The position numbers and the translations under genes are program-made. The notes beneath the pieces are model-generated. The model saw nothing but the letters and a program-made list of their open reading frames with translations, searched no databases and was not told the origin of the DNA. Positions 1 through 31,651 of a DNA stretch of 64,000 nt are shown piece after piece (the first letter of the stretch is position 1; every line of letters begins with the position of its first letter). This stretch comes from Balanoglossus misakiensis (Eukaryota; Animalia; Hemichordata): assembly GCA_040954595.2 (NCBI GenBank), contig CM082587.2, positions 11,959,262 through 12,023,261 of the forward strand, in the 5' to 3' direction.

Positions 1-3000
1 CTAGAATCTTACGTGCCATTGGAGAGCTCCATTGACTGGTCATTCATACTGTTTTCATTCATTCATTGCGGCATCAATATATTTTATCTATTCTAGCCAA
101 AGAGCTTGGCACCTGTTGAAATGAACTCATCTGCTGTGGGCCAGTTTATTGGTGGCAGTTGAGCTGAGGAGAGCACCTTCCTTCCCGGGACGCCACCAAG
201 TAAAGTTCCACGCCGCCCACCACAGATGCCAGCATTCATTCATGCGAGTGAGTGTAATTGCAAATTTGCCTATTCTAGATTCTTACGTGCCATTGGAGAG
301 CTCCATTGACTGGTCATTCATACTGTTTTCATTCATTCATTGCGGCATCAATATATTTTATCTATTCTAGCCAAAGAGCTTGGCACCTGTTGAAATGAAC
401 TCATCTGCTGTGGGCCAGTTTATTGGTGGCAGTTGAGCTGAGGAGAGCACCTTCCTTCCCGGCACGCCACCAAGTAAAGTTCCACGCCGCCCACCACAGA
501 TGCCAGCATTCATTCATGCGAGTGAGTGTAATTGCAAATTTGCCTATTCTAGATCTGTAATGGAAATGGAGAAAGTACCTTATATTTTCTGTAAAATAGA
601 CATTTAATTGGCAAGCCGTCCTGCATCAATTATTAATTGTGTACATGCACTAAAGCGCCCTCACTGCTGGGTGTGTTGTATGGTCTTTAACCCTGTTTCA
701 AATTAGAGTACTTTCTGCAATTTCAAGACAGATCTTACGTGCCATTGGAGAGCTCCATTGACTGGTCATTCATACTGTTTTCATTCATTCATTGCGGCAT
801 CAATATATTTTATCTATTCTAGCCAAAGAGCTTGGCACCTGTTGAAATGAACTCATCTGCTGTGGGCCAGTTTATTGGTGGCAGTTGAGCTGAGGAGAGC
901 ACCTTCCTTCCCGGCACGCCACCAAGTAAAGTTCCACGCCGCCCACCACAGATGCCAGCATTCATTCATGCGAGTGAGTGTAATTGCAAATTTGCCTATT
1001 CTAGAATTACGTGCCATTGGAGAGCTCCATTGACTGGTCATTCATACTGTTTTCATTCATTCATTGCGGCATCAATATATTTTATCTATTCTAGCCAAAG
1101 AGCTTGGCACCTGTTGAAATGAACTCATCTGCTGTGGGCCAGTTTATTGGTGGCAGTTGAGCTGAGGAGAGCACCTTCCTTCCCGGCACGCCACCAAGTA
1201 AAGTTCCACGCCGCCCACCACAGATGCCAGCATTCATTCATGCGAGTGAGTGTAATTGCAAATTTGCCTATTCTAGATCTGTAATGGAAATGGAGAAAGT
1301 ACCTTATATTTTCTGTAAAATAGACATTTAATTGGCAAGCCGTCCTGCATCAATTATGAATTGTGTACATGCACTAAAGCGCCCTCACTGCTGGGTGTGT
1401 TGTATGGTCTTTAACCCTGTTTCAAATTAGAGTACTTTCTGCAATTTCAAGACAGATCTTACGTGCCATTGGAGAGCTCCATTGACTGGTCATTCATACT
1501 GTTTTCATTCATTCATTGCGGCATCAATATATTTTATCTATTCTAGCCAAAGAGCTTGGCACCTGTTGAAATGAACTCATCTGCTGTGGGCCAGTTTATT
1601 GGTGGCAGTTGAGCTGAGGAGAGCACCTTCCTTCCCGGCACGCCACCAAGTAAAGTTCCACGCCGCCCACCACAGATGCCAGCATTCATTCATGCGAGTG
1701 AGTGTAATTGCAAATTTGCCTATTCTAGATCTGTAATGGAAATGGAGAAAGTACCTTATATTTTCTGTAAAATAGACATTTAATTGGCAAGCCGTCCTGC
1801 ATCAATTATGAATTGTGTACATGCACTAAAGCGCCCTCACTGCTGGGTGTGTTGTATGGTCTTTAACCCTGTTTCAAATTAGAGTACTTTCTGCAATTTC
1901 AAGACAGATCTTACGTGCCATTGGAGAGCTCCATTGACTGGTCATTCATACTGTTTTCATTCATTCATTGCGGCATCAATATATTTTATCTATTCTAGCC
2001 AAAGAGCTTGGCACCTGTTGAAATGAACTCATCTGCTGTGGGCCAGTTTATTGGTGGCAGTTGAGCTGAGGAGAGCACCTTCCTTCCCGGCACGCCACCA
2101 AGTAAAGTTCCACGCCGCCCACCACAGATGCCAGCATTCATTCATGCGAGTGAGTGTAATTGCAAATTTGCCTATTCTAGATCTGTAATGGAAATGGAGA
2201 AAGTACCTTATATTTTCTGTAAAATAGACATTTAATTGGCAAGCCGTCCTGCATCAATTATGAATTGTGTACATGCACTAAAGCGCCCTCACTGCTGGGT
2301 GTGTTGTATGGTCTTTAACCCTGTTTCAAATTAGAGTACTTTCTGCAATTTCAAGACAGATCTTACGTGCCATTGGAGAGCTCCATTGACTGGTCATTCA
2401 TACTGTTTTCATTCATTCATTGCGGCATCAATATATTTTATCTATTCTAGCCAAAGAGCTTGGCACCTGTTGAAATGAACTCATCTGCTGTGGGCCAGTT
2501 TATTGGTGGCAGTTGAGCTGAGAAGAGCACCTTCCTTCCCGGCACGCCACCAAGTAAAGTTCCACGCCGCCCACCACAGATGCCAGCATTCATTCATGCG
2601 AGTGAGTGTAATTGCAAATTTGCCTATTCTAGAATCTTACGTGCCATTGGAGAGCTCCATTGACTGGTCATTCATACTGTTTTCATTCATTCATTGCGGC
2701 ATCAATATATTTTATCTATTCTAGCCAAAGAGCTTGGCACCTGTTGAAATGAACTCATCTGCTGTGGGCCAGTTTATTGGTGGCAGTTGAGCTGAGGAGA
2801 GCACCTTCCTTCCCGGGACGCCACCAAGTAAAGTTCCACGCCGCCCACCACAGATGCCAGCATTCATTCATGCGAGTGAGTGTAATTGCAAATTTGCCTA
2901 TTCTAGATTCTTACGTGCCATTGGAGAGCTCCATTGACTGGTCATTCATACTGTTTTCATTCATTCATTGCGGCATCAATATATTTTATCTATTCTAGCC

Positions 3001-6000
3001 AAAGAGCTTGGCACCTGTTGAAATGAACTCATCTGCTGTGGGCCAGTTTATTGGTGGCAGTTGAGCTGAGGAGAGCACCTTCCTTCCCGGCACGCCACCA
3101 AGTAAAGTTCCACGCCGCCCACCACAGATGCCAGCATTCATTCATGCGAGTGAGTGTAATTGCAAATTTGCCTATTCTAGATCTGTAATGGAAATGGAGA
3201 AAGTACCTTATATTTTCTGTAAAATAGACATTTAATTGGCAAGCCGTCCTGCATCAATTATGAATTGTGTACATGCACTAAAGCGCCCTCACTGCTGGGT
3301 GTGTTGTATGGTCTTTAACCCTGTTTCAAATTAGAGTACTTTCTGCAATTTCAAGACAGATCTTACGTGCCATTGGAGAGCTCCATTGACTGGTCATTCA
3401 TACTGTTTTCATTCATTCATTGCGGCATCAATATATTTTATCTATTCTAGCCAAAGAGCTTGGCACCTGTTGAAATGAACTCATCTGCTGTGGGCCAGTT
3501 TATTGGTGGCAGTTGAGCTGAGGAGAGCACCTTCCTTCCCGGCACGCCACCAAGTAAAGTTCCACGCCGCCCACCACAGATGCCAGCATTCATTCATGCG
3601 AGTGAGTGTAATTGCAAATTTGCCTATTCTAGATCTGTAATGGAAATGGAGAAAGTACCTTATATTTTCTGTAAAATAGACATTTAATTGGCAAGCCGTC
3701 CTGCATCAATTATGAATTGTGTACATGCACTAAAGCGCCCTCACTGCTGGGTGTGTTGTATGGTCTTTAACCCTGTTTCAAATTAGAGTACTTTCTGCAA
3801 TTTCAAGACAGATCTTACGTGCCATTGGAGAGCTCCATTGACTGGTCATTCATACTGTTTTCATTCATTCATTGCGGCATCAATATATTTTATGTATTCT
3901 AGCCAAAGAGCTTGGCACCTGTTGAAATGAACTCATCTGCTGTGGGCCAGTTTATTGGTGGCAGTTGAGCTGAGGAGAGCACCTTCCTTCCCGGCACGCC
4001 ACCAAGTAAAGTTCCACGCCGCCCACCACAGATGCCAGCATTCATTCATGCGAGTGAGTGTAATTGCAAATTTGCCTATTCTAGATCTGTAATGGAAATG
4101 GAGAAAGTACCTTATATTTTCTGTAAAATAGACATTTAATTGGCAAGCCGTCCTGCATCAATTATTAATTGTGTACATGCACTAAAGCGCCCTCACTGCT
4201 GGGTGTGTTGTATGGTCTTTAACCCTGTTTCAAATTAGAGTACTTTCTGCAATTTCAAGACAGATCTTACGTGCCATTGGAGAGCTCCATTGACTGGTCA
4301 TTCATACTGTTTTCATTCATTCATTGCGGCATCAATATATTTTATCTATTCTAGCCAAAGAGCTTGGCACCTGTTGAAATGAACTCATCTGCTGTGGGCC
4401 AGTTTATTGGTGGCAGTTGAGTTGAGGAGAGCACCTTCCTTCCCGGCACGCCACCAAGTAAAGTTCCACGCCGCCCACCACAGATGCCAGCATTCATTCA
4501 TGCGAGTGAGTGTAATTGCAAATTTGCCTATTCTAGAATTCTTACGTGCCATTGGAGAGCTCCATTGACTGGTCATTCATACTGTTTTCATTCATTCATT
4601 GCGGCATCAATATATTTTATGTATTCTAGCCAAAGAGCTTGGCACCTGTTGAAATGAACTCATCTGCTGTGGGCCAGTTTATTGGTGGCAGTTGAGCTGA
4701 GGAGAGCACCTTCCTTCCCGGCACGCCACCAAGTAAAGTTCCACGCCGCCCACCACAGATGCCAGCATTCATTCATGCGAGTGAGTGTAATTGCAAATTT
4801 GCCTATTCTAGATCTGTAATGGAAATGGAGAAAGTACCTTATATTTTCTGTAAAATAGACATTTAATTGGCAAGCCGTCCTGCATCAATTATGAATTGTG
4901 TACATGCACTAAAGCGCCCTCACTGCTGGGTGTGTTGTATGGTCTTTAACCCTGTTTCAAATTAGAGTACTTTCTGCAATTTCAAGACAGATCTTACGTG
5001 CCATTGGAGAGCTCCATTGACTGGTCATTCATACTGTTTTCATTCATTCATTGTGGCATCAATATATTTTATCTATTCTAGCCAAAGAGCTTGGCACCTG
5101 TTGAAATGAACTCATCTGCTGTGGGCCAGTTTATTGGTGGCAGTTGAGCTGAGGAGAGCACCTTCCTTCCCGGCACGCCACCAAGTAAAGTTCCACGCCG
5201 CCCACCACAGATGCCAGCATTCATTCATGCGAGTGAGTGTAATTGCAAATTTGCCTATTCTAGATCTGTAATGGAAATGGAGAAAGTACCTTATATTTTC
5301 TGTAAAATAGACATTTAATTGGCAAGCCGTCCTGCATCAATTATTAATTGTGTACATGCACTAAAGCGCCCTCACTGCTGGGTGTGTTGTATGGTCTTTA
5401 ACCCTGTTTCAAATTAGAGTACTTTCTGCAATTTCAAGACAGATCTTACGTGCCATTGGAGAGCTCCATTGACTGGTCATTCATACTGTTTTCATTCATT
5501 CATTGCGGCATCAATATATTTTATCTATTCTAGCCAAAGAGCTTGGCACCTGTTGAAATGAACTCATCTGCTGTGGGCCAGTTTATTGGTGGCAGTTGAG
5601 CTGAGAAGAGCACCTTCCTTCCCGGCACGCCACCAAGTAAAGTTCCACGCCGCCCACCACAGATGCCAGCATTCATTCATGCGAGTGAGTGTAATTGCAA
5701 ATTTGCCTATTCTAGATCTGTAATGGAAATGGAGAAAGTACCTTATATTTTCTGTAAAATAGACATTTAATTGGCAAGCCGTCCTGCATCAATTATGAAT
5801 TGTGTACATGCACTAAAGCGCCCTCACTGCTGGGTGTGTTGTATGGTCTTTAACCCTGTTTCAAATTAGAGTACTTTCTGCAATTTCAAGACAGATCTTA
5901 CGTGCCATTGGAGAGCTCCATTGACTGGTCATTCATACTGTTTTCATTCATTCATTGCGGCATCAATATATTTTATCTATTCTAGCCAAAGAGCTTGGCA

Positions 6001-9000
6001 CCTGTTGAAATGAACTCATCTGCTGTGGGCCAGTTTATTGGTGGCAGTTGAGCTGAGGAGAGCACCTTCCTTCCCGGCACGCCACCAAGTAAAGTTCCAC
6101 GCCGCCCACCACAGATGCCAGCATTCATTCATGCGAGTGAGTGTAATTGCAAATTTGCCTATTCTAGATCTGTAATGGAAATGGAGAAAGTACCTTATAT
6201 TTTCTGTAAAATAGACATTTAATTGGCAAGCCGTCCTGCATCAATTATGAATTGTGTACATGCACTAAAGCGCCCTCACTGCTGGGTGTGTTGTATGGTC
6301 TTTAACCCTGTTTCAAATTAGAGTACTTTCTGCAATTTCAAGACAGATCTTACGTGCCATTGGAGAGCTCCATTGACTGGTCATTCATACTGTTTTCATT
6401 CATTCATTGCGGCATCAATATATTTTATCTATTCTAGCCAAAGAGCTTGGCACCTGTTGAAATGAACTCATCTGCTGTGGGCCAGTTTATTGGTGGCAGT
6501 TGAGCTGAGGAGAGCACCTTCCTTCCCGGCACGCCACCAAGTAAAGTTCCACGCCGCCCACCACAGATGCCAGCATTCATTCATGCGAGTGAGTGTAATT
6601 GCAAATTTGCCTATTCTAGATCTGTAATGGAAATGGAGAAAGTACCTTATATTTTCTGTAAAATAGACATTTAATTGGCAAGCCGTCCTGCATCAATTAT
6701 GAATTGTGTACATGCACTAAAGCGCCCTCACTGCTGGGTGTGTTGTATGGTCTTTAACCCTGTTTCAAATTAGAGTACTTTCTGCAATTTCAAGACAGAT
6801 CTTACGTGCCATTGGAGAGCTCCATTGACTGGTCATTCATACTGTTTTCATTCATTCATTGCGGCATCAATATATTTTATGTATTCTAGCCAAAGAGCTT
6901 GGCACCTGTTGAAATGAACTCATCTGCTGTGGGCCAGTTTATTGGTGGCAGTTGAGCTGAGGAGAGCACCTTCCTTCCCGGCACGCCACCAAGTAAAGTT
7001 CCACGCCGCCCACCACAGATGCCAGCATTCATTCATGCGAGTGAGTGTAATTGCAAATTTGCCTATTCTAGATCTGTAATGGAAATGGAGAAAGTACCTT
7101 ATATTTTCTGTAAAATAGACATTTAATTGGCAAGCCGTCCTGCATCAATTATTAATTGTGTACATGCACTAAAGCGCCCTCACTGCTGGGTGTGTTGTAT
7201 GGTCTTTAACCCTGTTTCAAATTAGAGTACTTTCTGCAATTTCAAGACAGATCTTACGTGCCATTGGAGAGCTCCATTGACTGGTCATTCATACTGTTTT
7301 CATTCATTCATTGCGGCATCAATATATTTTATCTATTCTAGCCAAAGAGCTTGGCACCTGTTGAAATGAACTCATCTGCTGTGGGCCAGTTTATTGGTGG
7401 CAGTTGAGCTGAGGAGAGCACCTTCCTTCCCGGCACGCCACCAAGTAAAGTTCCACGCCGCCCACCACAGATGCCAGCATTCATTCATGCGAGTGAGTGT
7501 AATTGCAAATTTGCCTATTCTAGAATTACGTGCCATTGGAGAGCTCCATTGACTGGTCATTCATACTGTTTTCATTCATTCATTGCGGCATCAATATATT
7601 TTATCTATTCTAGCCAAAGAGCTTGGCACCTGTTGAAATGAACTCATCTGCTGTGGGCCAGTTTATTGGTGGCAGTTGAGCTGAGGAGAGCACCTTCCTT
7701 CCCGGCACGCCACCAAGTAAAGTTCCACGCCGCCCACCACAGATGCCAGCATTCATTCATGCGAGTGAGTGTAATTGCAAATTTGCCTATTCTAGATCTG
7801 TAATGGAAATGGAGAAAGTACCTTATATTTTCTGTAAAATAGACATTTAATTGGCAAGCCGTCCTGCATCAATTATGAATTGTGTACATGCACTAAAGCG
7901 CCCTCACTGCTGGGTGTGTTGTATGGTCTTTAACCCTGTTTCAAATTAGAGTACTTTCTGCAATTTCAAGACAGATCTTACGTGCCATTGGAGAGCTCCA
8001 TTGACTGGTCATTCATACTGTTTTCATTCATTCATTGCGGCATCAATATATTTTATCTATTCTAGCCAAAGAGCTTGGCACCTGTTGAAATGAACTCATC
8101 TGCTGTGGGCCAGTTTATTGGTGGCAGTTGAGCTGAGGAGAGCACCTTCCTTCCCGGCACGCCACCAAGTAAAGTTCCACGCCGCCCACCACAGATGCCA
8201 GCATTCATTCATGCGAGTGAGTGTAATTGCAAATTTGCCTATTCTAGAATCTTACGTGCCATTGGAGAGCTCCATTGACTGGTCATTCATACTGTTTTCA
8301 TTCATTCATTGCGGCATCAATATATTTTATCTATTCTAGCCAAAGAGCTTGGCACCTGTTGAAATGAACTCATCTGCTGTGGGCCAGTTTATTGGTGGCA
8401 GTTGAGCTGAGGAGAGCACCTTCCTTCCCGGCACGCCACCAAGTAAAGTTCCACGCCGCCCACCACAGATGCCAGCATTCATTCATGCGAGTGAGTGTAA
8501 TTGCAAATTTGCCTATTCTAGATCTGTAATGGAAATGGAGAAAGTACCTTATATTTTCTGTAAAATAGACATTTAATTGGCAAGCCGTCCTGCATCAATT
8601 ATTAATTGTGTACATGCACTAAAGCGCCCTCACTGCTGGGTGTGTTGTATGGTCTTTAACCCTGTTTCAAATTAGAGTACTTTCTGCAATTTCAAGACAG
8701 ATCTTACGTGCCATTGGAGAGCTCCATTGACTGGTCATTCATACTGTTTTCATTCATTCATTGCGGCATCAATATATTTTATCTATTCTAGCCAAAGAGC
8801 TTGGCACCTGTTGAAATGAACTCATCTGCTGTGGGCCAGTTTATTGGTGGCAGTTGAGCTGAGAAGAGCACCTTCCTTCCCGGCACGCCACCAAGTAAAG
8901 TTCCACGCCGCCCACCACAGATGCCAGCATTCATTCATGCGAGTGAGTGTAATTGCAAATTTGCCTATTCTAGATCTGTAATGGAAATGGAGAAAGTACC

Positions 9001-12000
9001 TTATATTTTCTGTAAAATAGACATTTAATTGGCAAGCCGTCCTGCATCAATTATGAATTGTGTACATGCACTAAAGCGCCCTCACTGCTGGGTGTGTTGT
9101 ATGGTCTTTAACCCTGTTTCAAATTAGAGTACTTTCTGCAATTTCAAGACAGATCTTACGTGCCATTGGAGAGCTCCATTGACTGGTCATTCATACTGTT
9201 TTCATTCATTCATTGCGGCATCAATATATTTTATCTATTCTAGCCAAAGAGCTTGGCACCTGTTGAAATGAACTCATCTGCTGTGGGCCAGTTTATTGGT
9301 GGCAGTTGAGCTGAGGAGAGCACCTTCCTTCCCGGCACGCCACCAAGTAAAGTTCCACGCCGCCCACCACAGATGCCAGCATTCATTCATGCGAGTGAGT
9401 GTAATTGCAAATTTGCCTATTCTAGATCTGTAATGGAAATGGAGAAAGTACCTTATATTTTCTGTAAAATAGACATTTAATTGGCAAGCCGTCCTGCATC
9501 AATTATGAATTGTGTACATGCACTAAAGCGCCCTCACTGCTGGGTGTGTTGTATGGTCTTTAACCCTGTTTCAAATTAGAGTACTTTCTGCAATTTCAAG
9601 ACAGATCTTACGTGCCATTGGAGAGCTCCATTGACTGGTCATTCATACTGTTTTCATTCATTCATTGCGGCATCAATATATTTTATCTATTCTAGCCAAA
9701 GAGCTTGGCACCTGTTGAAATGAACTCATCTGCTGTGGGCCAGTTTATTGGTGGCAGTTGAGCTGAGGAGAGCACCTTCCTTCCCGGCACGCCACCAAGT
9801 AAAGTTCCACGCCGCCCACCACAGATGCCAGCATTCATTCATGCGAGTGAGTGTAATTGCAAATTTGCCTATTCTAGATCTGTAATGGAAATGGAGAAAG
9901 TACCTTATATTTTCTGTAAAATAGACATTTAATTGGCAAGCCGTCCTGCATCAATTATGAATTGTGTACATGCACTAAAGCGCCCTCACTGCTGGGTGTG
10001 TTGTATGGTCTTTAACCCTGTTTCAAATTAGAGTACTTTCTGCAATTTCAAGACAGATCTTACGTGCCATTGGAGAGCTCCATTGACTGGTCATTCATAC
10101 TGTTTTCATTCATTCATTGCGGCATCAATATATTTTATCTATTCTAGCCAAAGAGCTTGGCACCTGTTGAAATGAACTCATCTGCTGTGGGCCAGTTTAT
10201 TGGTGGCAGTTGAGCTGAGAAGAGCACCTTCCTTCCCGGCACGCCACCAAGTAAAGTTCCACGCCGCCCACCACAGATGCCAGCATTCATTCATGCGAGT
10301 GAGTGTAATTGCAAATTTGCCTATTCTAGAATCTTACGTGCCATTGGAGAGCTCCATTGACTGGTCATTCATACTGTTTTCATTCATTCATTGCGGCATC
10401 AATATATTTTATCTATTCTAGCCAAAGAGCTTGGCACCTGTTGAAATGAACTCATCTGCTGTGGGCCAGTTTATTGGTGGCAGTTGAGCTGAGGAGAGCA
10501 CCTTCCTTCCCGGGACGCCACCAAGTAAAGTTCCACGCCGCCCACCACAGATGCCAGCATTCATTCATGCGAGTGAGTGTAATTGCAAATTTGCCTATTC
10601 TAGATTCTTACGTGCCATTGGAGAGCTCCATTGACTGGTCATTCATACTGTTTTCATTCATTCATTGCGGCATCAATATATTTTATCTATTCTAGCCAAA
10701 GAGCTTGGCACCTGTTGAAATGAACTCATCTGCTGTGGGCCAGTTTATTGGTGGCAGTTGAGCTGAGGAGAGCACCTTCCTTCCCGGCACGCCACCAAGT
10801 AAAGTTCCACGCCGCCCACCACAGATGCCAGCATTCATTCATGCGAGTGAGTGTAATTGCAAATTTGCCTATTCTAGATCTGTAATGGAAATGGAGAAAG
10901 TACCTTATATTTTCTGTAAAATAGACATTTAATTGGCAAGCCGTCCTGCATCAATTATTAATTGTGTACATGCACTAAAGCGCCCTCACTGCTGGGTGTG
11001 TTGTATGGTCTTTAACCCTGTTTCAAATTAGAGTACTTTCTGCAATTTCAAGACAGATCTTACGTGCCATTGGAGAGCTCCATTGACTGGTCATTCATAC
11101 TGTTTTCATTCATTCATTGCGGCATCAATATATTTTATCTATTCTAGCCAAAGAGCTTGGCACCTGTTGAAATGAACTCATCTGCTGTGGGCCAGTTTAT
11201 TGGTGGCAGTTGAGCTGAGGAGAGCACCTTCCTTCCCGGCACGCCACCAAGTAAAGTTCCACGCCGCCCACCACAGATGCCAGCATTCATTCATGCGAGT
11301 GAGTGTAATTGCAAATTTGCCTATTCTAGATCTGTAATGGAAATGGAGAAAGTACCTTATATTTTCTGTAAAATAGACATTTAATTGGCAAGCCGTCCTG
11401 CATCAATTATGAATTGTGTACATGCACTAAAGCGCCCTCACTGCTGGGTGTGTTGTATGGTCTTTAACCCTGTTTCAAATTAGAGTACTTTCTGCAATTT
11501 CAAGACAGATCTTACGTGCCATTGGAGAGCTCCATTGACTGGTCATTCATACTGTTTTCATTCATTCATTGCGGCATCAATATATTTTATGTATTCTAGC
11601 CAAAGAGCTTGGCACCTGTTGAAATGAACTCATCTGCTGTGGGCCAGTTTATTGGTGGCAGTTGAGCTGAGGAGAGCACCTTCCTTCCCGGCACGCCACC
11701 AAGTAAAGTTCCACGCCGCCCACCACAGATGCCAGCATTCATTCATGCGAGTGAGTGTAATTGCAAATTTGCCTATTCTAGATCTGTAATGGAAATGGAG
11801 AAAGTACCTTATATTTTCTGTAAAATAGACATTTAATTGGCAAGCCGTCCTGCATCAATTATTAATTGTGTACATGCACTAAAGCGCCCTCACTGCTGGG
11901 TGTGTTGTATGGTCTTTAACCCTGTTTCAAATTAGAGTACTTTCTGCAATTTCAAGACAGATCTTACGTGCCATTGGAGAGCTCCATTGACTGGTCATTC

Positions 12001-13343
12001 ATACTGTTTTCATTCATTCATTGCGGCATCAATATATTTTATCTATTCTAGCCAAAGAGCTTGGCACCTGTTGAAATGAACTCATCTGCTGTGGGCCAGT
12101 TTATTGGTGGCAGTTGAGCTGAGGAGAGCACCTTCCTTCCCGGCACGCCACCAAGTAAAGTTCCACGCCGCCCACCACAGATGCCAGCATTCATTCATGC
12201 GAGTGAGTGTAATTGCAAATTTGCCTATTCTAGAATTACGTGCCATTGGAGAGCTCCATTGACTGGTCATTCATACTGTTTTCATTCATTCATTGCGGCA
12301 TCAATATATTTTATCTATTCTAGCCAAAGAGCTTGGCACCTGTTGAAATGAACTCATCTGCTGTGGGCCAGTTTATTGGTGGCAGTTGAGCTGAGGAGAG
12401 CACCTTCCTTCCCGGCACGCCACCAAGTAAAGTTCCACGCCGCCCACCACAGATGCCAGCATTCATTCATGCGAGTGAGTGTAATTGCAAATTTGCCTAT
12501 TCTAGATCTGTAATGGAAATGGAGAAAGTACCTTATATTTTCTGTAAAATAGACATTTAATTGGCAAGCCGTCCTGCATCAATTATGAATTGTGTACATG
12601 CACTAAAGCGCCCTCACTGCTGGGTGTGTTGTATGGTCTTTAACCCTGTTTCAAATTAGAGTACTTTCTGCAATTTCAAGACAGATCTTACGTGCCATTG
12701 GAGAGCTCCATTGACTGGTCATTCATACTGTTTTCATTCATTCATTGCGGCATCAATATATTTTATCTATTCTAGCCAAAGAGCTTGGCACCTGTTGAAA
12801 TGAACTCATCTGCTGTGGGCCAGTTTATTGGTGGCAGTTGAGCTGAGGAGAGCACCTTCCTTCCCGGCACGCCACCAAGTAAAGTTCCACGCCGCCCACC
12901 ACAGATGCCAGCATTCATTCATGCGAGTGAGTGTAATTGCAAATTTGCCTATTCTAGATCTGTAATGGAAATGGAGAAAGTACCTTATATTTTCTGTAAA
13001 ATAGACATTTAATTGGCAAGCCGTCCTGCATCAATTATGAATTGTGTACATGCACTAAAGCGCCCTCACTGCTGGGTGTGTTGTATGGTCTTTAACCCTG
13101 TTTCAAATTAGAGTACTTTCTGCAATTTCAAGACAGATCTTACGTGCCATTGGAGAGCTCCATTGACTGGTCATTCATACTGTTTTCATTCATTCATTGC
13201 GGCATCAATATATTTTATCTATTCTAGCCAAAGAGCTTGGCACCTGTTGAAATGAACTCATCTGCTGTGGGCCAGTTTATTGGTGGCAGTTGAGCTGAGG
13301 AGAGCACCTTCCTTCCCGGCACGCCACCAAGTAAAGTTCCACG
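1..13343. repeat. Satellite array 1: tandem 452-bp monomers (A + MITE-like B) mixed with 272-275-bp B-less monomers; open at the window's left edge
   Basis: Near-identical tandem units with a 452-bp period (e.g. identically phased ORF positions differ by multiples of 452 plus 272-275); only a few recurring SNPs. Confidence 0.98.
555..731. mobile_element. Representative 177-bp MITE-like element B (roughly 70 copies in the window, one per 452-bp monomer)
   Basis: Left end CTGTAATGGAAATGGAGAAAGTAC (555-578) matches the reverse complement of the right end (708-731, CTGTCTTGAAATTGCAGAAAGTAC) at 19/24 positions; AGATCT spans both junctions, consistent with an AT (or GATC/AGATCT) target duplication; B is absent from some monomers. 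Confidence 0.85.
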
Positions 13344-15133
13344 TGCATTCCTGGCCCTGGTTTTATTTATGTTTACAGACAATATTGCATTTTTGTACAA
13401 GTATTTTAATCAACTATAAATTTTGAATGTGTCATTTACCTGAACCGGTCATGTTGACCAGAATGATACATTTCTGCCTTCACTCACCCTATAAATATGT
13501 GATTGAGACATAGGTCATTTGCATAAGCTAACATACCAGAAAGTAAGCATATCTGTTGTTTTCCCTGTGTCACTGCCATCAAAGTAAAAATTAGACGTTG
13601 TGTAGAGCAAACTCCAATTTTTTGTTCTCAATAAACATGGATGAATTACATAGAATGTGTTTGTTGTTTACAGTCTTTAAATGACACATTAGATTATGCA
13701 CTTTACAAAACGTTTCTGAGAAACAAGTGACTAACTAGTTTCTTTCCACTGTGGCCAACGTGGTTCACTGTTTGTGTCAGAATCTCTCTGTTTTGCAAGG
13801 ATTTTGAAATCATAGTGGTGACATGCATAGTGAAAATCAGCTACTTTCAAATGTCCGTCATGTTCATGCTGTAATTGAATTTTCAAAGCTGGGCTGGCGT
13901 GTTTTTTCTTATTTACATAAGTATCACACTTTATACATGTATCTTCATGGGGTTTTTTGAGTCCCGTATTTAGGTCCTCTCTCACAATTTTACGAAATAT
14001 CGTATAACTGACAGTTGTTCTTCCCAGAAGAGATTGGTTGGTTATGAACTCTCGGTGTAACTGCGATATACTGTGGTCCGGCGCCAGGTACGGTTTAAAT
14101 CGAGGATTCCTGCAGTAGTGAGATTCTACAATTCTGTGCCTGCGTACGTGTTCAGTGATATCAGTCAGCAAATTTGGATTGAGTTTCCGACGATGCCCTT
14201 TGTGTCGGCCCCTTGCATCTGGCATCAGACCAGTAAAGTTCCATGTGCATTCCTGGCCCTGGTTTTATTTATGTTTACAGACAATATTGCATTTTTGTAC
14301 AAGTATTTTAATCAACTATAAATTTTGAATGTGTCATTTACCTGAACCGGTCATGTTGACCAGAATGATACATTTCTGCCTTCACTCACCCTATAAATAT
14401 GTGATTGAGACATAGGTCATTTGCATAAGCTAACATACCAGAAAGTAAGCATATCTGTTGTTTTCCCTGTGTCACTGCCATCAAAGTAAAAATTAGACGT
14501 TGTGTAGAGCAAACTCCAATTTTTTGTTCTCAATAAACATGGATGAATTACATAGAATGTGTTTGTTGTTTACAGTCTTTAAATGACACATTAGATTATG
14601 CACTTTACAAAACGTTTCTGAGAAACAAGTGACTAACTAGTTTCTTTCCACTGTGGCCAACGTGGTTCACTGTTTGTGTCAGAATCTCTCTGTTTTGCAA
14701 GGATTTTGAAATCATAGTGGTGACATGCATAGTGAAAATCAGCTACTTTCAAATGTCCGTCATGTTCATGCTGTAATTGAATTTTCAAAGCTGGGCTGGC
14801 GTGTTTTTTCTTATTTACATAAGTATCACACTTTATACATGTATCTTCATGGGGTTTTCTGAGTCCCGTATTTAGGTCCTCTCTCACAATTTTACGAAAT
14901 ATCGTATAACTGACAGTTGTTCTTCCCAGAAGAGATTGGTTGGTTATGAACTCTCGGTGTAACTGCGATATACTGTGGTCCGGCGCCAGGTACGGTTTAA
15001 ATCGAGGATTCCTGCAGTAGTGAGATTCTACAATTCTGTGCCTGCGTACGTGTTCAGTGATATCAGTCAGCAAATTTGGATTGAGTTTCCGACGATGCCC
15101 TTTGTGTCGGCCCCTTGCATCTGGCATCAGACC
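13330..15133. repeat. 902-bp tandem duplication (13330-14231 / 14232-15133) of the 3' part of the minus-strand gene and its downstream region
   Basis: ORF ends 13731 and 14633 differ by 902; AGT microhomology at the junction; two substitutions noticed between the copies. Confidence 0.95.
13731..14225 (-). pseudogene. 5'-truncated duplicate (164 aa) of the transposase N-terminal-half gene
   Basis: Identical to the last 164 aa of 14633-15589 except one R>K change; created by the 902-bp duplication. Confidence 0.85.
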
Positions 15134-15589
15134 AGTTGAACAGTGCATCATTTTGCTTAGAACGGTTCTAGTCCGCCTCTCACTAATGCCAAATAATTTC
15201 AGGAATGCATTTTTGCAGACAGTAACCGTTTCACCGCCTTCATTCACCAGGTGATAACGAACCGATTTCTTGTGTGACTTCATCTGTATATCCATCAGTT
15301 TGTAGAGCATCAAGTTCTGTTCATTATACACGCGACCATCAAAATATTTTCTCGTGGTGCCTAAAACATGCGTACTCCCAAGCTTCCGCAGACAATTCCC
15401 TTGAACGCAGGCGCATTCCAAGGAAAGACTGTCAATATCTGGAAAAGGGCGATTTTTCCTTGGTTTTTGTCTCGGACACGTCTTTTTAGAATTCCTACGT
15501 GGCTTGTTGGCTCGAGCTGACAGTTCGGTTCTGCGTTGCTGCCACACAGGAATGGGTTCCCACGCATAAGCAACTCCCCGGCAGGCCAT
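14633..15589 (-). CDS. Transposase N-terminal half (Cys/His-rich putative DNA-binding region, Sola1-like), 318 aa from the first ATG
   Basis: Motifs CxC(4)C, VCKNAFLKLFGIS, DARGRH, ESHYCR, PYL, YxIF, PHEDTCIKCD and H..H...A occur in the order I recognise from N-terminal halves of Sola1-type transposases; intronless; minus-strand AATAAA at 14264-14269. Confidence 0.8.
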   Translation of the reverse strand: MACRGVAYAWEPIPVWQQRRTELSARANKPRRNSKKTCPRQKPRKNRPFPDIDSLSLECACVQGNCLRKLGSTHVLGTTRKYFDGRVYNEQNLMLYKLMDIQMKSHKKSVRYHLVNEGGETVTVCKNAFLKLFGISERRTRTVLSKMMHCSTGLMPDARGRHKGHRRKLNPNLLTDITEHVRRHRIVESHYCRNPRFKPYLAPDHSISQLHREFITNQSLLGRTTVSYTIFRKIVREDLNTGLRKPHEDTCIKCDTYVNKKKHASPALKIQLQHEHDGHLKVADFHYACHHYDFKILAKQRDSDTNSEPRWPQWKETS

Positions 15590-15760
15590 GGTCACAGCTG
15601 AAGTATTTGTTCAAGTACTGACTGACTAAACGCGGCATGGAACAAACGAACGAACGAACGAACGACTTCACGTTCGGAAAAAAAATCGTTGCGAGCTGTT
15701 GGGTGCCTCTATAGTTGTCGGCAACCGTTCTTTTTTATTGCTAAACAATGCTGTCAGAGC
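15590..15760. promoter_or_regulatory. Putative bidirectional promoter between the two transposase halves, containing a short (GAAC)n tract
   Basis: 171 bp between divergent ATGs; GAAC repeats at ~15640-15666; promoter function inferred from geometry only. Confidence 0.55.
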
Positions 15761-16774
15761 ATGGAAGGTGTGGTGGAAAACGAACAGAGGTTTTGTACGA
15801 CCAACGATTGGATGGTGCTACATATGGACTTCCACAAGTCATTGCCGGTTCCTAAACTCAGCTCTGAAGACTTTTACTTTAAATCGAAATTGCAAATGAA
15901 GCTCCTTGGAATTTACAACGGGACAACGGAAAAGATGCATTGTTATGTATGGACAGAGCTCGATAGCAGAAAGTCTCCCGATGAAGTTATTACCTGTCTA
16001 AATCACTTTTTTTATAACTCGGGTGTGACCAGCAGACATGCAGTTATTTACAGCGACAACTGCCGTGCCGAATTCAAGTGTGGGAAGTTAATGTTTTACT
16101 ATGACTATCTGTTACGAAAGGGCGTGTTTCGACGAATTGACTATAAAACTCTTGTGGCTGGACACACGTACTCCACCTGTGACCGAGTTTTTGCGTCCAT
16201 TGAAAGGCATGCAAGTCGTTTCCAGAGTATAGAGACACCTCACGATTGGACATCTGTGATTCGAGGATCTTCTCTGAATGGGAACATTGGAGTTACGGAG
16301 ATGACTCACAGAGACTTTTTCAATTATTCTGATTTCCTGAAAAATGAGTACGTTGTGCGTTATGCAGATACAAACAATGTAACTTTTTACTACCAAGCCA
16401 TGCACTATTTTAATTTTGGAGAAGGAGAAAGGCTTGATACCGACGGCAACCTCAGAACATTTAGTCATGCAGATAAAGTTTGGGTGAGAACATCTCTAGA
16501 TCCAAGCGAGACCCCGATTGTAGTCGACTTTAGAAAGAAGAAGCAGAACCGGCGTTTACAAGATTGTACGCTGAACAAACTTTATCAGGAACGTCGACCA
16601 CTGGCGAGCAAAGTTTGGCGGGATCTTCAGAGTTTAGCCAAAAATTACCTGTCTCCGGAGGCAATAGAATTTTATAGGAATCTACCGCTTCAGGAGAGTA
16701 GTGGCACCTCTGCAGACCCGTACGCCTTTCATGATGATGACGACGACGATGATGATGATATGGGCGGTGGTTGA
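15761..16774 (+). CDS. Transposase catalytic half (RNase H-fold DDD core, Sola1-like), 337 aa from the first ATG, with acidic tail
   Basis: MDFHKSLPVPKL, FYFKSKL, CYVWTE, EVITCL, YSDNC and GHTYSTCDRVFASIE supply three candidate catalytic Asp; ATTAAA at 16875 followed by a GT-rich tract. Confidence 0.85.
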   Translation: MEGVVENEQRFCTTNDWMVLHMDFHKSLPVPKLSSEDFYFKSKLQMKLLGIYNGTTEKMHCYVWTELDSRKSPDEVITCLNHFFYNSGVTSRHAVIYSDNCRAEFKCGKLMFYYDYLLRKGVFRRIDYKTLVAGHTYSTCDRVFASIERHASRFQSIETPHDWTSVIRGSSLNGNIGVTEMTHRDFFNYSDFLKNEYVVRYADTNNVTFYYQAMHYFNFGEGERLDTDGNLRTFSHADKVWVRTSLDPSETPIVVDFRKKKQNRRLQDCTLNKLYQERRPLASKVWRDLQSLAKNYLSPEAIEFYRNLPLQESSGTSADPYAFHDDDDDDDDDMGGG

Positions 16775-17092
16775 ACAAACTGTCCTTTTCATGACGACAG
16801 TGATTTTGGATATTTGATGTGCGTGCACAGTTTATATGTAATATTTTCACACGAACGAGTTTTGACTGAATTTGATTAAAGAATGTACTCGATAATTAAC
16901 AAATGTGCTGAATCGTGGTTATTATGTTGTTAATTTTTGTTTGTTTGTTTGTTTGTTTGTAAACAATTTCCGTTCATTCAACTGGCTACAAAGTTGGATT
17001 TTTGTACTGGGAAGCGATAAACTCGCACATCAAAACCGGGGAGACTCGATCATTTTTCCCTGCAGGTAGCCTGAAAAGCACCCGGGCAGAGA

Positions 17093-17166
17093 TTACGTCA
17101 TATATGGTCCACTTTAATACGAAATTATGCAAATGTGACATTTCACGGAAACGGCGTATATAAAAG
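17093..17166 (+). promoter_or_regulatory. Pol II promoter of the SET gene: CRE-like TTACGTCA (17093), octamer ATGCAAAT (17127), TATA box TATATAAAAG (17157)
   Basis: Consensus motifs clustered ~90-165 bp upstream of the ATG at 17258. Confidence 0.6.
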
Positions 17167-17257
17167 CGACCCTGGGCTATTGTTCGGAATGCGTCATCGA
17201 CGAGAGAGTGACTGATAATTCTTCTACCTCGAGTCAACCATTCTGTATATACTGAAC

Positions 17258-18584
17258 ATGGCTAGCTGGCGCAGGAAGAGACAAGGCAATGTGCGGTCTG
17301 TAATCAACGAACGGCACCGCTCAGTTCAGTGTCCCTTTCTTCAAAAGTGGATCGGTGAGCAATTGGTATTTTCAGGTCGTTCAGAGGATGAAGTCCAGTC
17401 CAGTACTGTATTTGAGAGCTACAAATGTTGGGTTGAAAACTATTCGTCGGCGGACAATCAAGTAATGATTATGGTTACTAAAGCTCGATTTTTCAAGGTG
17501 AGAATGATCGCATTTTTCTTCCCCCCCCCCCTCCCTCCCCCAAGGGACTCGTTTTCTGTCTCTTTTAAACCTGTAACTTAACGAAAAGGAAGTTTTTCAC
17601 ATATCTCTTTGTTGACACTATAGCAATTTGGAGCGCGGATGCTTCAAGAGAATAGCGTTACCAAATCAAAGTCGGCCGGGGTTAATATTTATAGAGGTGT
17701 TCGTCTGAAAGCTGGTTCGCGAAGAATCTCAACGGGGAAACCTGAGCACAGTGTACTTCAGACCAGGGCAAGGGCATTTCTTGATGACGCCAGCGTGACC
17801 GTTCCGATCGAGGTAAGAATGGTGTTTTGTTTGGACTAGGACAATAGAACGTTGCAATGAGTGTGTCAATGGGTGTCCAAGTGCAAACGTGGTCGGCTTC
17901 TGTCCACAAATGCCATTAATTTTAGGCAGGATTTATAAAATTGTCAATGAAGAATACAAAAATGAAAAACAATAGTTAATAGCAAACGGGTAGGATTGCA
18001 AGGGCTTGTAAAACGGTACACACTGTACCAGGAAGTTTGCAACACTAATGAAGAATGTATATGATATATTTAGGTGAGAACTGTTCGCGATCGCCGGGAC
18101 GCAGGACGGTGCGCGTTTTCGACGAGGGATCTTCAAGCCTGGAACGTCGTCTGCGAATACCGGGGCACGGTTATTAGCGTTGAAGAAGCTAGTCGGCGTG
18201 ATGAACTTTACAGGGCAGAGGGGAAACGACCACGCATGTTTCATCTCTACATTGGAAAGAGACACGTTGTGTGAGTGTATCACTTAGTCGAATATATGGT
18301 CATATATTGCAAAGCATCTGTCGAAATAGAAAACGTAATATTGTCTATATTTTCCTCATTAACGCAGCATTGACGGATACGATGTCCCAGCCGGTGAAGA
18401 AAATTTAGCGGGCCTAATAAATCACAGTCAGCAGAACGCCAACTTGGTACCGGTTCGGATCGGAGAGCGCCTGGTTTTCTTTGCAACCAGGAATCTTTGT
18501 CAGGGAGTAGAGCTTTTGTATGATTACGGTGACGGGGGTGAAGAGGATTTCTTCAGTGGTTCTCAAACTTTTCCTGAAAATTAA
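17258..18584 (+). CDS. Winged-helix + SET-domain lysine methyltransferase (PR-Set7/SETD8-like), 280 aa; exons 17258-17497, 17624-17812, 18074-18270, 18368-18584
   Basis: Three GT-AG introns (phases 0, 0, 2) splice to one open frame with GRCAF, VCEYRG, VIDG, AGLINHS and ELLYDYGD motifs and no post-SET cysteines; the N-terminus resembles RFX/D5-type winged helix. Confidence 0.9.
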
Positions 18585-19492
18585 GGCATTAACACATCAA
18601 CGCTTCGGGATGTCGTAACGGCGGCAAGGCGGGGGGGGGGGGGGGGGGGGCGTGAAAATGTTTGTATCAGGAACAAAATTCCCGTGCAAATCACCTTGAT
18701 CCGGGTGGGTGGACTATTCGCGACAAATGTTGAAATCATACAAAGCATTTTACTTAATTAACCCATTTTTTTCATTTATTTGTTTACAGTTTACAACGTC
18801 ATAGAGAAGTTGAACTAGAGACTGGATCAGCGTGGGTGACACCATAGTACACCAATGTTTTCTTCAGTTTGATTCAATTGTAATTTAAAACTGAGATTGC
18901 CTAACGCTTTCCCAGATTTTTTTAACCACTGAGAAACTGTGGGTTTTTTTCTGGGTTTTGGTGCGAGGTGATCTCAGTCAGTGGTGTTAATTTAATTAAT
19001 CATTTTCTTTTCCTATTTACGTCGACTGAAATGTATTTTGATAGGTGATAGTCATACCATAAAAAAATCTTACGGCGCGACTGCCAAAATGTACATTTAT
19101 TTGTCCGTTCCAAGTTATTTTGTGTATGTGTGATGGGTGCCGGTGACTGTGCAGGGTTGATTTCCCTAGAGCGACTGTTATATTCGTTTTCCAACGATGA
19201 TGAATTTACATGTTATTTGCTTGGCATTTTGACGCAGAGACACTTCTGAAAACACAAACCTATTAATTATGCCACGGGTGTAAATTGATCACATTAAAAG
19301 AGGCTTTAGACGTTTGCCGCGAGCTCCTGGTGGGCAGAATCTTGTCAGCCCAAATTTGACTATAAGTACATAGCCAATGATGTGACGCTCTCCCACATCC
19401 TTCGCCGCGCCTTTTCGCTGATTTACAGCATCTTGCGTAAACACTGTCATTTGATCTTGCTTGGCAGAAGTCAACTTGCTCTATACTACATT

Positions 19493-19858
19493 ATGGCGGC
19501 CAAGCTCAACTGCATATCAGATAATGCCAAGGAGCGTTTGAGAGGCATCCTCGCCAGAAGGAGTCGCGTTTCCGGTGACTGTGTGCTCTGGACGGGTGCA
19601 GCTTGTCGAAACGGCTATGGCTCTATTACGTTCAGAGATGAGAACACTCTAACCGCCTATGTCCATCACATTGCACTCCTAATTAACGGAGTGCAATTGG
19701 TGGGCAGGCGGTTAGAGTGTTCTCATCTTTGCAACGAAAAGCTATGCATCCGCCCAGAGCACATTGTCCAGGAAACGCGACTCCTAAACATTTCACGAAA
19801 GACGTGCTTTAAATCCCCAAAAGGGGAGTGTCACCACGATCCCAGGTGCCTAAGGTGA
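19493..19858 (+). CDS. His-Me finger endonuclease, His-Cys box / I-PpoI-like zinc-binding loop type, 121 aa (may be spliced at 19855)
   Basis: CVLWTG, GYG, YVHH, SHLCNEKLCIRPEH, E(4)N(2)R(2)C and CHHDPRC motifs; ATG at 19493; AG|GTGAGT overlaps the stop codon. Confidence 0.88.
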   Translation: MAAKLNCISDNAKERLRGILARRSRVSGDCVLWTGAACRNGYGSITFRDENTLTAYVHHIALLINGVQLVGRRLECSHLCNEKLCIRPEHIVQETRLLNISRKTCFKSPKGECHHDPRCLR

Positions 19859-20110
19859 GTAATCCTCTTCTCATTTGATATGTATTGTGTGACCCTGCAG
19901 TTGAAACGCTTTCATCAATAATTTGCGGCGCGTGGGTAATCTCGGTGTTATTGACAATGCAGCCGGCCCAAACATTTTTAAATTAACACTGTTTCTGACT
20001 GTATTAACGAAATGTCCAATTTGCAAGTAGCCTATAGACAACCCTTTTGAATGAGTTTTGTCTCGTTGAGATTTTATACATAAGGAACAATCTAGATTTA
20101 TTTTAGAAGA

Positions 20111-20529
20111 CACTGTTCTTTTAAAACAGCTAGCATAATACAGCTAAATTTCGGAATTTCCGGACAATTTTCGGAATTCCTTTTAAATTTGAGAAATTTT
20201 TCATCAGATATAAGTGTTACTATTTATTGGACATGTTTTTATCATTGTTTACTTTTTAAGGTCATTCTCATCCCCCCCCCCCCCCCAAAAAAAAAGCCGC
20301 TTTAGGCTTCATGTTCAGTAAAAAATCTGGAAAGTTCAGCTGAATTTTACACTGATCACACATTTTTGGGAAGGTCTGGCGCAAAATAAAGGATGACAAA
20401 TGTAAATCTAATGTCACATTTGTAAACCTCTAAGTATTGTACACTCATTCTATTAAGTATATGCAAATAGTACGGATAATTTTTTCGGAATGTGGAATTC
20501 CGAAATTAGTTCGGAACGTGTTAGCAGTG
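20111..20529. mobile_element. Possible degenerate nested non-autonomous element (CACTG...CAGTG, flanked by AAGA)
   Basis: 5-bp inverted termini, 4-bp AAGA direct repeat on both sides, and inverted subterminal TTTCGGAATT motifs. Confidence 0.4.
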
Positions 20530-20840
20530 AAGAGATCACCACTGAGGGTTGGAAGGCCTTGCCAGAAATTAACGCGTAAAGTACGCCCTCACAGGCCATG
20601 TAAACAAGGTCAAATAAGGCCGTCTGGCAAACGAATGATTAATTCAACGCGCCATTTGAGCCGAGCTGAGTTGGTCTGAGTTGCGTATCACACAGACTTA
20701 GGCTGAATGTCAGTGGAGTAACCAGTCCGTTTTAGATTTACCAATGATGTGAATTTAATTTCTTCACCCAGAAAAACAGAACACAACTTGTCTGCAACAT
20801 GATGCTGGAGGTGACACATGACAGAGAAGTGGATCCGCGT

Positions 20841-21175
20841 TGTCAACACAGATGCCAGCATTCAAAAGGGGAGTGCCACCTGCTAAAATCAACTCATCTG
20901 CTGTTGGCCCATTTTACCTGTGGCAACTGTTCAGAGGAGACAACGTTTATTCCGTGCAAGCCAACACGCAATGTTGGGGTCTACCTGTCAACACAGATGC
21001 AAGCATTCATGTGAGTGAGTATCAGGACTGACCTTGTTTTGCTGAATAATTCATAATGCCTATTTTAGAATTCTTAGAGGCATTTGGAGTTCATTGCCTG
21101 GTCAACCAAACTACACCCCTTAACAGCTGAAACAAAATGCGTATTGTGTTCATTCATTCATTGCTTCAATATATA
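20841..21175 (+). repeat. Diverged, B-less homologue of satellite unit A inside the cassette
   Basis: Colinear shared blocks CACCTG, AACTCATCTGCTGT, GAGGAGA, CACAGATGC.AGCATTCAT, GAGTGAGT, TGCCTATT.TAGA, CATTG.CTGGTCA and TTCATTCATTCATTGC. Confidence 0.85.
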
Positions 21176-21489
21176 TAGGCAACATGAGTATCAAGTAGCA
21201 CTATTTGTTTACGATTGTATTCATGAAAACTTCCCACTAACAATTCCACAGTTAATATTGAACACATTTATCCAACAAGGTCAAAAGAAAAAGGGAATCT
21301 TCTGGTTCCAAAATACGCCACAAATGTGGGTCAACATACAGTGAAATATTATGGTGCTCAAATATGCAACATATCAAATCTGTCTCATCAAAGTCATGCT
21401 TTAAAAAAGAATTGAAAAGGTATTATTTATCCATTTGACTGCTGTATTTTCAGAAGGAAAACAAACTGAATTTGGTTTTTCATGTACAA

Positions 21490-30400: not shown

Positions 30401-31264
30401 TGTAATTGCAAATTTGCCTATTCTAGATCTGTAATGGAAATGGAGAAAGTACCTTATATTTTCTGTAAAATAGACATTTAATTGGCAAGCCGTCCTGCAT
30501 CAATTATGAATTGTGTACATGCACTAAAGCGCCCTCACTGCTGGGTGTGTTGTATGGTCTTTAACCCTGTTTCAAATTAGAGTACTTTCTGCAATTTCAA
30601 GACAGATCTTACGTGCCATTGGAGAGCTCCATTGACTGGTCATTCATACTGTTTTCATTCATTCATTGCGGCATCAATATATTTTATCTATTCTAGCCAA
30701 AGAGCTTGGCACCTGTTGAAATGAACTCATCTGCTGTGGGCCAGTTTATTGGTGGCAGTTGAGCTGAGGAGAGCACCTTCCTTCCCGGCACGCCACCAAG
30801 TAAAGTTCCACGCCGCCCACCACAGATGCCAGCATTCATTCATGCGAGTGAGTGTAATTGCAAATTTGCCTATTCTAGATCTGTAATGGAAATGGAGAAA
30901 GTACCTTATATTTTCTGTAAAATAGACATTTAATTGGCAAGCCGTCCTGCATCAATTATGAATTGTGTACATGCACTAAAGCGCCCTCACTGCTGGGTGT
31001 GTTGTATGGTCTTTAACCCTGTTTCAAATTAGAGTACTTTCTGCAATTTCAAGACAGATCTTACGTGCCATTGGAGAGCTCCATTGACTGGTCATTCATA
31101 CTGTTTTCATTCATTCATTGCGGCATCAATATATTTTATCTATTCTAGCCAAAGAGCTTGGCACCTGTTGAAATGAACTCATCTGCTGTGGGCCAGTTTA
31201 TTGGTGGCAGTTGAGCTGAGGAGAGCACCTTCCTTCCCGGCACGCCACCAAGTAAAGTTCCACG
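21490..31264. repeat. Satellite array 2 (~9.8 kb)
   Basis: Same monomers as array 1; internal 2176-bp block duplication (25493 vs 27669). Confidence 0.98.
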
Positions 31265-31651
31265 TGCATTCCTGGCCCTGGTTTTATTTATGTTTACAGA
31301 CAATATTGCATTTTTGTACAAGTATTTTAATCAACTATAAATTTTGAATGTGTCATTTACCTGAACCGGTCATGTTGACCAGAATGATACATTTCTGCCT
31401 TCACTCACCCTATAAATATGTGATTGAGACATAGGTCATTTGCATAAGCTAACATACCAGAAAGTAAGCATATCTGTTGTTTTCCCTGTGTCACTGCCAT
31501 CAAAGTAAAAATTAGACGTTGTGTAGAGCAAACTCCAATTTTTTGTTCTCAATAAACATGGATGAATTACATAGAATGTGTTTGTTGTTTACAGTCTTTA
31601 AATGACACATTAGATTATGCACTTTACAAAACGTTTCTGAGAAACAAGTGA

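What the first reader, a model, noticed from the sequence alone, without database searches (positions are those of the whole stretch)
1..4550. Four distinct excision-footprint-like scars where B is missing: a record of repeated transposase activity in the array
Seen: the filled site is ttctagAT[B]ATcttacg. Empty monomers read ttctagaatcttacg (e.g. ~5, ~2631; 11 counted), ttctagattcttacg (~277, ~2905; 7), ttctagaattacg (~1003; 9) or ttctagaattcttacg (~4535, ~43092; 2). I noticed no precise ttctagatcttacg, which is what recombination between the two AGATCT repeats would leave. Known: loss or complement-switch of the base next to the element (T>A left, A>T right) is typical of flanking-hairpin excision (hAT, RAG-type). 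Inference: at least four independent excisions repaired by end joining, then spread by array homogenisation. The scars fit a 2-bp AT duplication best.
Basis: partly seen in the sequence, partly recalled or inferred. Interest (0 to 1): 0.8.

Follow-up and report, generated by a model that had tools for sequence, protein, structure and literature searches.

The report
Transposon exit scars frozen in satellite
A tandem repeat carries a 177-base mini-transposon in most of its units, and the units without it show four different small scars, never the clean site; they are likely old footprints of the element being cut out, later copied many times, though cutting of an ancestral empty site by a nuclease encoded in the same array would fit too.

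Summary
Observation confirmed. Of 97 junctions, 68 are filled; the empty ones are ATC 11, A 9, TTC 7, ATTC 2; none is precise. All four types occur in public contigs, so they are not assembly errors. B is a 177-bp MITE (CTGT..ACAG, 19/24-bp TIR); relatives elsewhere sit in (AT)n, which supports the AT duplication. Of 16 excision models, only an hAT-like flank hairpin explains all four scars. Background mutation is unlikely (P about 1e-4). But 'four independent excisions' is not shown. A 38,557-bp duplication inflates the counts, and TTC always follows ATC (7 of 7). A 78%-identical paralogue A' already reads AGAATTCTTA. A blunt cut of that empty site also explains 4 of 4, and the array carries an I-PpoI-like nuclease with intact catalytic residues in an 8.1-kb insert. 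The insert's DDD transposase is split and has no room for the insertion domain of hairpin-forming enzymes, so B's mover is unidentified. Best reading: two to four old germ-line events, mostly excisions, spread by array turnover. No sign of ongoing excision. A new variant of known things (Ds footprints, KolobokP multimers).

The parts
1..13 (+). ATC-type empty junction, cut by the window start
273..287 (+). TTC-type empty junction (7 copies; each directly after an ATC junction and behind an A body with C181G)
283..553 (+). A body, 271 bp (96 full copies, no indels, 7 distinct substitutions); no Rfam match
555..731 (+). B, 177-bp MITE-like element CTGT..ACAG, imperfect 24-bp TIR (19 of 24), flanked by AT at 553-554 and 732-733; 68 full copies
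999..1011 (+). A-type empty junction (9 copies)
2627..2641 (+). ATC-type empty junction (11 copies)
2901..2915 (+). TTC-type empty junction
4531..4546 (+). ATTC-type empty junction (second copy 43088-43103 is the higher-order duplicate); upstream A has C156T
1087..39643 (+). 38,557-bp higher-order unit; 1087-25443 is identical to 39644-64000
13344..21489 (.). 8.1-kb gene-bearing insert that replaces the end of one A and the first 27 bp of the next B; further copies start at 31265 and 51901; holds a 902-bp internal duplication (13330-14231 / 14232-15133)
14633..15610 (-). ORF matching the N-terminal half of full-length DUF7869-family transposases; points away from the catalytic half
15761..16774 (+). 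Catalytic half of a DDD transposase (Pfam DUF7869; integrase-like RNase H fold; D23, D99, D141)
17219..18584 (+). Apparently spliced gene ending in a SET domain (Pfam hit on 18363-18581; exon structure inferred)
19493..19858 (+). [quoted passage not shown]
20874..21176 (+). A', diverged paralogue of A (78% over aligned columns) that runs across the junction without B and reads AGAATTCTTA (about 21068-21077)

Best explanation
The array is made of 271-bp A units mostly joined through a 177-bp TIR element B flanked by AT, and the four empty junctions are likely end-joining footprints left when a transposase cut B out in the germ line a few times, after which array duplication copied them. Shown: anatomy, counts, TIRs, no precise junction in the window, higher-order copying. 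Inferred: B entered an AGATCT site with a 2-bp AT duplication, and the filled unit expanded. A transposase nicked one base into each flank and closed flank hairpins, as hAT enzymes do. Opening and joining gave TAGAA|TTCT (ATTC), TAGAA|TCT (ATC), TAGA|TTCT (TTC) and, with 2 bases trimmed, TAGAA|TTACG (A). I estimate two to four events, not necessarily four: ATC and TTC may be the two outcomes of one break, and ATTC may be older than the rest. The enzyme is unidentified and may act in trans.
For:: of 16 boundary x chemistry excision models, only 'AT duplication + flank hairpin with 1-nt offset' explains 3 of 4 scars without trimming and 4 of 4 with 2 nt trimmed; the other 15 explain at most 2 of 4. 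B relatives are flanked by (AT)n at the left end (X1 2 contigs, X2 3 contigs) and at the right end (X1 1 contig), fixing the ends at CTGT..ACAG and showing the family is dispersed. TIR 19 of 24. The filled site cannot come from AGAATTCT by a simple insertion, whereas AATT is the direct product of this excision (sequence reasoning). Published Ds footprints show the same loss or complement switch of the adjacent base (PMC1978519, Table 1, passages seen). Background mutation P about 1e-4.
Against: A' (78% identical) already has AGAATTCTTA, the best-conserved 20-mer of the alignment (19 of 20, others 18; picked after the fact); this needs an older excision or an ancestral AATT state. A blunt cut of the empty AGAATTCT explains 4 of 4 from a smaller product set (12 products against 33). 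The site is a palindrome, so only ATTC and A carry information on hairpins. The hairpin model also allows the precise product, so its absence is not diagnostic. The only transposase in the window has 42 residues between its second and third Asp and an integrase-like fold, with no room for the insertion domain of hAT/RAG/MuDR enzymes (recalled). No hAT protein was among the 8 ORFs scanned.
Confidence: 0.52

Rival explanations
1. AGAATTCT is the ancestral empty site. The I-PpoI-like nuclease in the array cuts it again and again; ATC, TTC (-1 bp) and A (microhomology deletion) are cut-resistant repair alleles, and the B-filled allele is also resistant and spreads by gene conversion, as in homing.
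For: A' has the ATTC state and the junction is its best-conserved stretch. A blunt cut explains 4 of 4, counting the uncut allele. The nuclease keeps the I-PpoI active-site residues. I-PpoI cuts a semi-palindrome with a 4-base overhang, and a role in multimer growth was proposed for the KolobokP nucleases (PMC9587614, discussion).
Against: It does not explain the filled site AGAT[B]ATCT without an extra 2-bp deletion before insertion. A 4-nt overhang cut, the I-PpoI geometry, explains only 3 of 4 within 3 nt of trimming. The target of this nuclease is unknown, and the palindrome is only 8 bp. The insert looks like a late arrival with two secondary junctions.
Confidence: 0.2
2. Mixed origin without hairpins: ATTC is a surviving never-filled allele, ATC and TTC are one-sided 1-bp losses from one or two excisions (KolobokP/IS3-like or simple trimming), and A is a later deletion from ATC or ATTC.
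For: Several non-hairpin models give ATC and TTC. KolobokP LTDR excision removes 1-5 flanking bases on one side only (PMC9587614). TTC always follows ATC. A is 2 edits from ATC.
Against: It needs two further unexplained indels at the same few bases (AT loss before insertion, and A). The A body linked to ATTC is no more diverged than the others, and A' has the consensus C, not the linked T, at position 156.
Confidence: 0.2
3. One empty allele gave the other three by ordinary point and slippage mutation.
For: ATC, TTC and ATTC are each one edit apart; A is two edits from ATC.
Against: 8 substitutions and no indel elsewhere in 452 bp; P about 1e-4 for 3 changes in 5 bp. The public contigs list one other common indel in the unit, a 3-bp loss at 22878.
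Confidence: 0.06
4. Assembly or library artefact.
For: B lies between two GATC sites, and run X2 shows GATC ligation joints around it.
Against: The four types recur with linked SNPs in exact long duplications. Their joints in X2 are not GATCGATC joints, and ATC is also in X1 and X3.
Confidence: 0.02

Closest known systems
hAT (Ac/Ds, Hermes) excision footprints
   Same: Loss or complement switch of the base next to the element, consistent with flank hairpins and end joining (PMC1978519 Table 1; PMC5499845 passages).
   Different: B has a 2-bp AT duplication and CT..AG ends, not the 8-bp duplication of hAT (recalled); no hAT protein among the ORFs scanned; footprints are fixed in a tandem array.
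KolobokP composite-like transposons (PMC9587614)
   Same: TIR-bearing short unit alternating with an internal unit in multimers, junctions where the TIR unit is missing, an I-PpoI-like His-Me nuclease beside a DDD/E transposase.
   Different: B is 177 bp (LTDRs about 450 or 660 bp), ends CT..AG not RR..YY, the transposase is DUF7869-type and split, and the insert is not bounded by two intact B copies.
Sola-type DDD transposons (family label for DUF7869 recalled from motifs, not from a call)
   Same: DDD triad; both halves match 77 of 184 fetched proteins, mostly long ones.
   Different: Sola makes 4-bp duplications (PMC10741241 passage; AWWT for Sola1, PMC3845634 passage); the array site has AGAT/ATCT. 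The protein here is in two divergent ORFs.
TE-derived satellite DNA (PMC5932611, abstract and outline seen)
   Same: A mobile element becomes part of an expanding tandem array.
   Different: Here the element sits inside the monomer of an older repeat family and is lost again from some units.

Membership tests
MITE | Short, non-coding, terminal inverted repeats | tested here: met
   177 bp, TIR 19 of 24; ends pair in the fold
MITE | Target site duplication | tested here: met
   AT on both sides in all 68 filled sites; (AT)n flanks of relatives, left and right ends on separate contigs
MITE | Dispersed copies at other loci | tested here: met
   Diverged B relatives with other flanks in X1 and X2 contigs
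MITE | Autonomous partner with the same ends | tested here: inconclusive
   Insert joins B at base 28 in the window, but an X1 contig continues elsewhere at that point; no second B-like end inside the insert above shuffles
hAT | 8-bp target duplication (recalled) | tested here: not met
   At most AT, GATC or AGATCT can be read as duplicated
hAT | hAT transposase with insertion domain | tested here: not met
   None among 8 ORFs scanned; a source elsewhere in the genome could not be searched
hAT (works like) | Footprints from a 1-nt-offset flank hairpin | tested here: met
   4 of 4 scars; a fit, not a demonstration
Sola | DDD transposase of the family | tested here: inconclusive
   DDD triad and DUF7869 hit; no named Sola sequence could be compared
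Sola | 4-bp target duplication | tested here: not met
   AGAT versus ATCT in the array; ATAT flanks of dispersed relatives cannot tell 2 from 4 bp
KolobokP | His-Me finger nuclease with transposase | tested here: met
KolobokP | LTDR of about 450 or 660 bp with RR..YY ends | tested here: not met
   B is 177 bp with CT..AG ends
KolobokP | Kolobok-type transposase | tested here: not met
   DUF7869, short D-D spacing
Ginger / solo LTR (TGT..ACA, 4-bp duplication; features recalled) | Ends at TGT..ACA with variable 4-bp duplication | tested here: not met
   Relatives in (AT)n keep the outer C and G; this boundary explains at most 2 of 4 scars
Any active transposon | Ongoing excision | not testable with these tools
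   Only contigs were served, which drop rare variants

The most novel reading that the evidence does not exclude
An excise-cut-refill loop drives this satellite. The split DDD transposase, though lacking an insertion domain, excises B through flank hairpins and so creates AGAATTCT. The I-PpoI-like nuclease of the same element cuts exactly that footprint, and repair from filled neighbours refills the site and lengthens the array. ATC, TTC and A are escape alleles. The selfish element would make its own homing site.
Probability: 0.1. Interest if true: 0.8.

Novelty: new variant of a known kind. Interest (0 to 1): 0.42.

Why it matters
Footprints are normally read from laboratory assays. A satellite that keeps filled and scarred units side by side is a natural record of cutting chemistry for an element whose ends (CTGT..ACAG, AT duplication) fit none of the superfamilies compared here. 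It offers a ready substrate to test the untested KolobokP idea that a captured homing nuclease drives multimer growth, and to learn how DUF7869-type transposases cut. If it is only old MITE excision by an enzyme acting in trans, it is a neat but ordinary case.

Tried and rejected
No whole genome is held, so B families, other A arrays and a trans-acting transposase could not be searched. Rfam over 11500-23000: 0 matches at E<=1. Word-based protein searches: none for the catalytic half among longer proteins, none for the N half, 2 for the profile, one named as an uncharacterised Priapulus protein. Related loci: none in viral contigs, 1 of 177 candidates in metagenome contigs, too short to show ends. 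Exact-pattern scans for B and A motifs: 0 in genome contigs and viral contigs. No B-like relic inside the insert above shuffled scores. No RNA holder listed. VIA fold searches did not run. Earlier findings: 5 look-ups, all empty. Literature: 0 papers for DUF7869, for MITE + satellite DNA + monomer + excision + footprint + empty and for a split Sola transposase; 4 listings, none opened, for Sola + excision + footprints. The library lacks most subscription journals and Repbase Reports, so this does not show it is unpublished. The original Sola paper was not held; the Sola figure supplement held no sequence. KolobokP supplements were not read and may show comparable footprints. Considered and set aside: A as a Helitron (starts TC, ends CTAG, but the junctions are not head-to-tail and A' ends TTAG); recombination between the AGATCT repeats (predicts the precise site, 0 of 29 empty junctions); GATC joints and the B circle in X2 (read as Hi-C ligation). 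One joint in X2 (22631 to 22819, letters between unknown) could not be assigned. Contig depths were not used as copy numbers.
Full report
Observation. The window is a tandem array of a 271-bp unit A, usually followed by a 181-bp spacer. One search lists 96 junctions and adds one cut by the window start: 68 filled, 11 ATC, 9 A, 7 TTC, 2 ATTC. The precise TTCTAGATCTTACG is absent. All 96 full A bodies and all 68 spacers keep their length; the whole 452-bp unit shows 8 distinct substitutions and no indel. Three more background changes inside 5 bp have P about 1e-4, so a site-directed process is needed. The counts are copies, not events: 1087-25443 equals 39644-64000 exactly, and each TTC follows an ATC directly (7 of 7) behind the same C181G variant.

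Public data. Five runs were listed, all held as contigs. X2 shows joints for all four types; X1 and X3 show ATC; no precise joint is listed. X1 and X2 are one sample. Its main insert differs from the window at full depth in many places, so it may be another individual; this is not proven. X2 has GATC put in at GATC sites and joints between GATC sites, which I read as Hi-C ligation.

What B is. B is 177 bp, CTGT..ACAG, with 19 of 24 terminal bases inverted. The site is a palindrome, so AT, GATC or AGATCT could each be read as the duplication. Diverged relatives in X1 and X2 have (AT)n directly against CTGT and against ACAG (left and right ends on different contigs). This puts the outer C and G inside the element and leaves AT as the duplication. 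B is a MITE of unassigned superfamily.

Chemistry. I enumerated end-joining products without untemplated bases for 4 boundaries x 4 excision chemistries, and for 2 cuts of the empty ATTC allele. The AT boundary with a flank hairpin nicked one base into the flank gives ATC, TTC and ATTC with no trimming and A with 2 bases trimmed. The other 15 excision models give at most 2 of 4. This is the pattern of Ds footprints (PMC1978519, Table 1 and passages); the pathway is described for hAT, Transib, RAG and Muta1 (PMC5499845, passages). Limits: the model allows 33 products including the precise one, and ATC and TTC are simple 1-bp losses. A blunt cut of AGAATTCT also gives 4 of 4 from 12 products; a 4-nt overhang cut gives 3 of 4.

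Surroundings. Three near-identical 8.1-kb inserts replace 95 bp of the array. Each holds an N-terminal transposase half on the minus strand and a catalytic half on the plus strand. Both halves match the same 77 of 184 fetched proteins. The catalytic half hits DUF7869, folds like integrase/IstA and keeps D23, D99 and D141. Many of its closest relatives are also stand-alone proteins of about 310 aa; in L001 the halves are separate ORFs on one strand. The label Sola is recalled from motifs and could not be tested. The 42-residue spacing leaves no room for the insertion domain of known flank-hairpin enzymes (recalled), which argues against this protein being B's mover under the best model. The insert also holds a SET gene and an I-PpoI-like nuclease with intact active-site residues. 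An X1 contig continues past the insert's right end into other sequence, so the link to B may be secondary.

The diverged copy. A' (20874-21176) is 78% identical to A over aligned columns, lacks B and matches the ATTC junction over 19 of 20 bases. Contigs show two more A-family paralogues that continue in A's order, so the family is old. Either AATT is the ancestral empty state, or A' carries an older footprint. The filled site cannot come from AGAATTCT by simple insertion, while AATT is the direct product of the excision model; that tips the balance to excision. A' has the consensus base at the SNP linked to ATTC, so the ATTC haplotype is not visibly older.

Comparison. It works like hAT excision but fails hAT membership (duplication length, no such enzyme seen). 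It resembles KolobokP in multimers, loss of the TIR unit and the His-Me nuclease (PMC9587614: abstract, results and most of the discussion read), but differs in unit size, ends and transposase. Sola has 4-bp duplications (PMC10741241 and PMC3845634 passages). PMC5932611 was seen as abstract and outline; PMC5753468 and PMC4455052 as passages that did not settle the class.

Verdict. Real, and not chance. Hairpin-type excision footprints 0.52; mixed origin without hairpins 0.2; nuclease scars on an ancestral site 0.2; background mutation 0.06; artefact 0.02. About 0.7 that at least some scars are excision footprints, about 0.35 that all four are independent excisions. The events are old enough to be copied in a 38.6-kb unit, and nothing here shows present activity. 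New variant of a known kind; interest 0.42.

Noticed in passing
window 14633-16774: DDD transposase split into two ORFs that point away from each other. A group of about 310-aa stand-alone catalytic halves exists (most of P0001-P0011), and L001 has the halves as separate ORFs on one strand, so a split lineage may be real and the window's N half may be inverted.
   Followed up: partly
window 13344-21489: Transposase halves, a SET gene and a His-Me nuclease in one high-copy unit (contig depth about 700-800 in X1); a KolobokP-like gene pairing with another transposase family. True ends unknown.
   Followed up: partly
window 19633-19731: 26-bp inverted repeat (96%) inside the nuclease ORF, 47 bp apart; possibly a template-switch event.
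   Followed up: no
window 13330-15133: 902-bp tandem duplication with 2 differences; it includes 14 bp of A and an AGT microhomology, so it likely arose after the insert joined the array.
   Followed up: partly
window 20744-21140: Contigs show a variant of the insert in which 395 bp, most of A', are replaced by 7 bases.
   Followed up: no
window 283-553 and 20874-21176: Motifs kept between A and A': three E-box-like CANNTG words, a GTGAGT splice-donor-like word and CATT repeats; A may be a regulatory sequence.
   Followed up: no
run X3 on window 22500-22951: A run labelled as another organism holds an identical 274-bp ATC monomer and B at low depth but not the insert; contamination or a mixed sample is the simplest reading.
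   Followed up: no
window 21480-21510: Three forms of the insert's right junction: the window's, an X2 form with one extra C that resembles the inner left TIR of B, and an X1 form that runs into unrelated sequence.
   Followed up: partly
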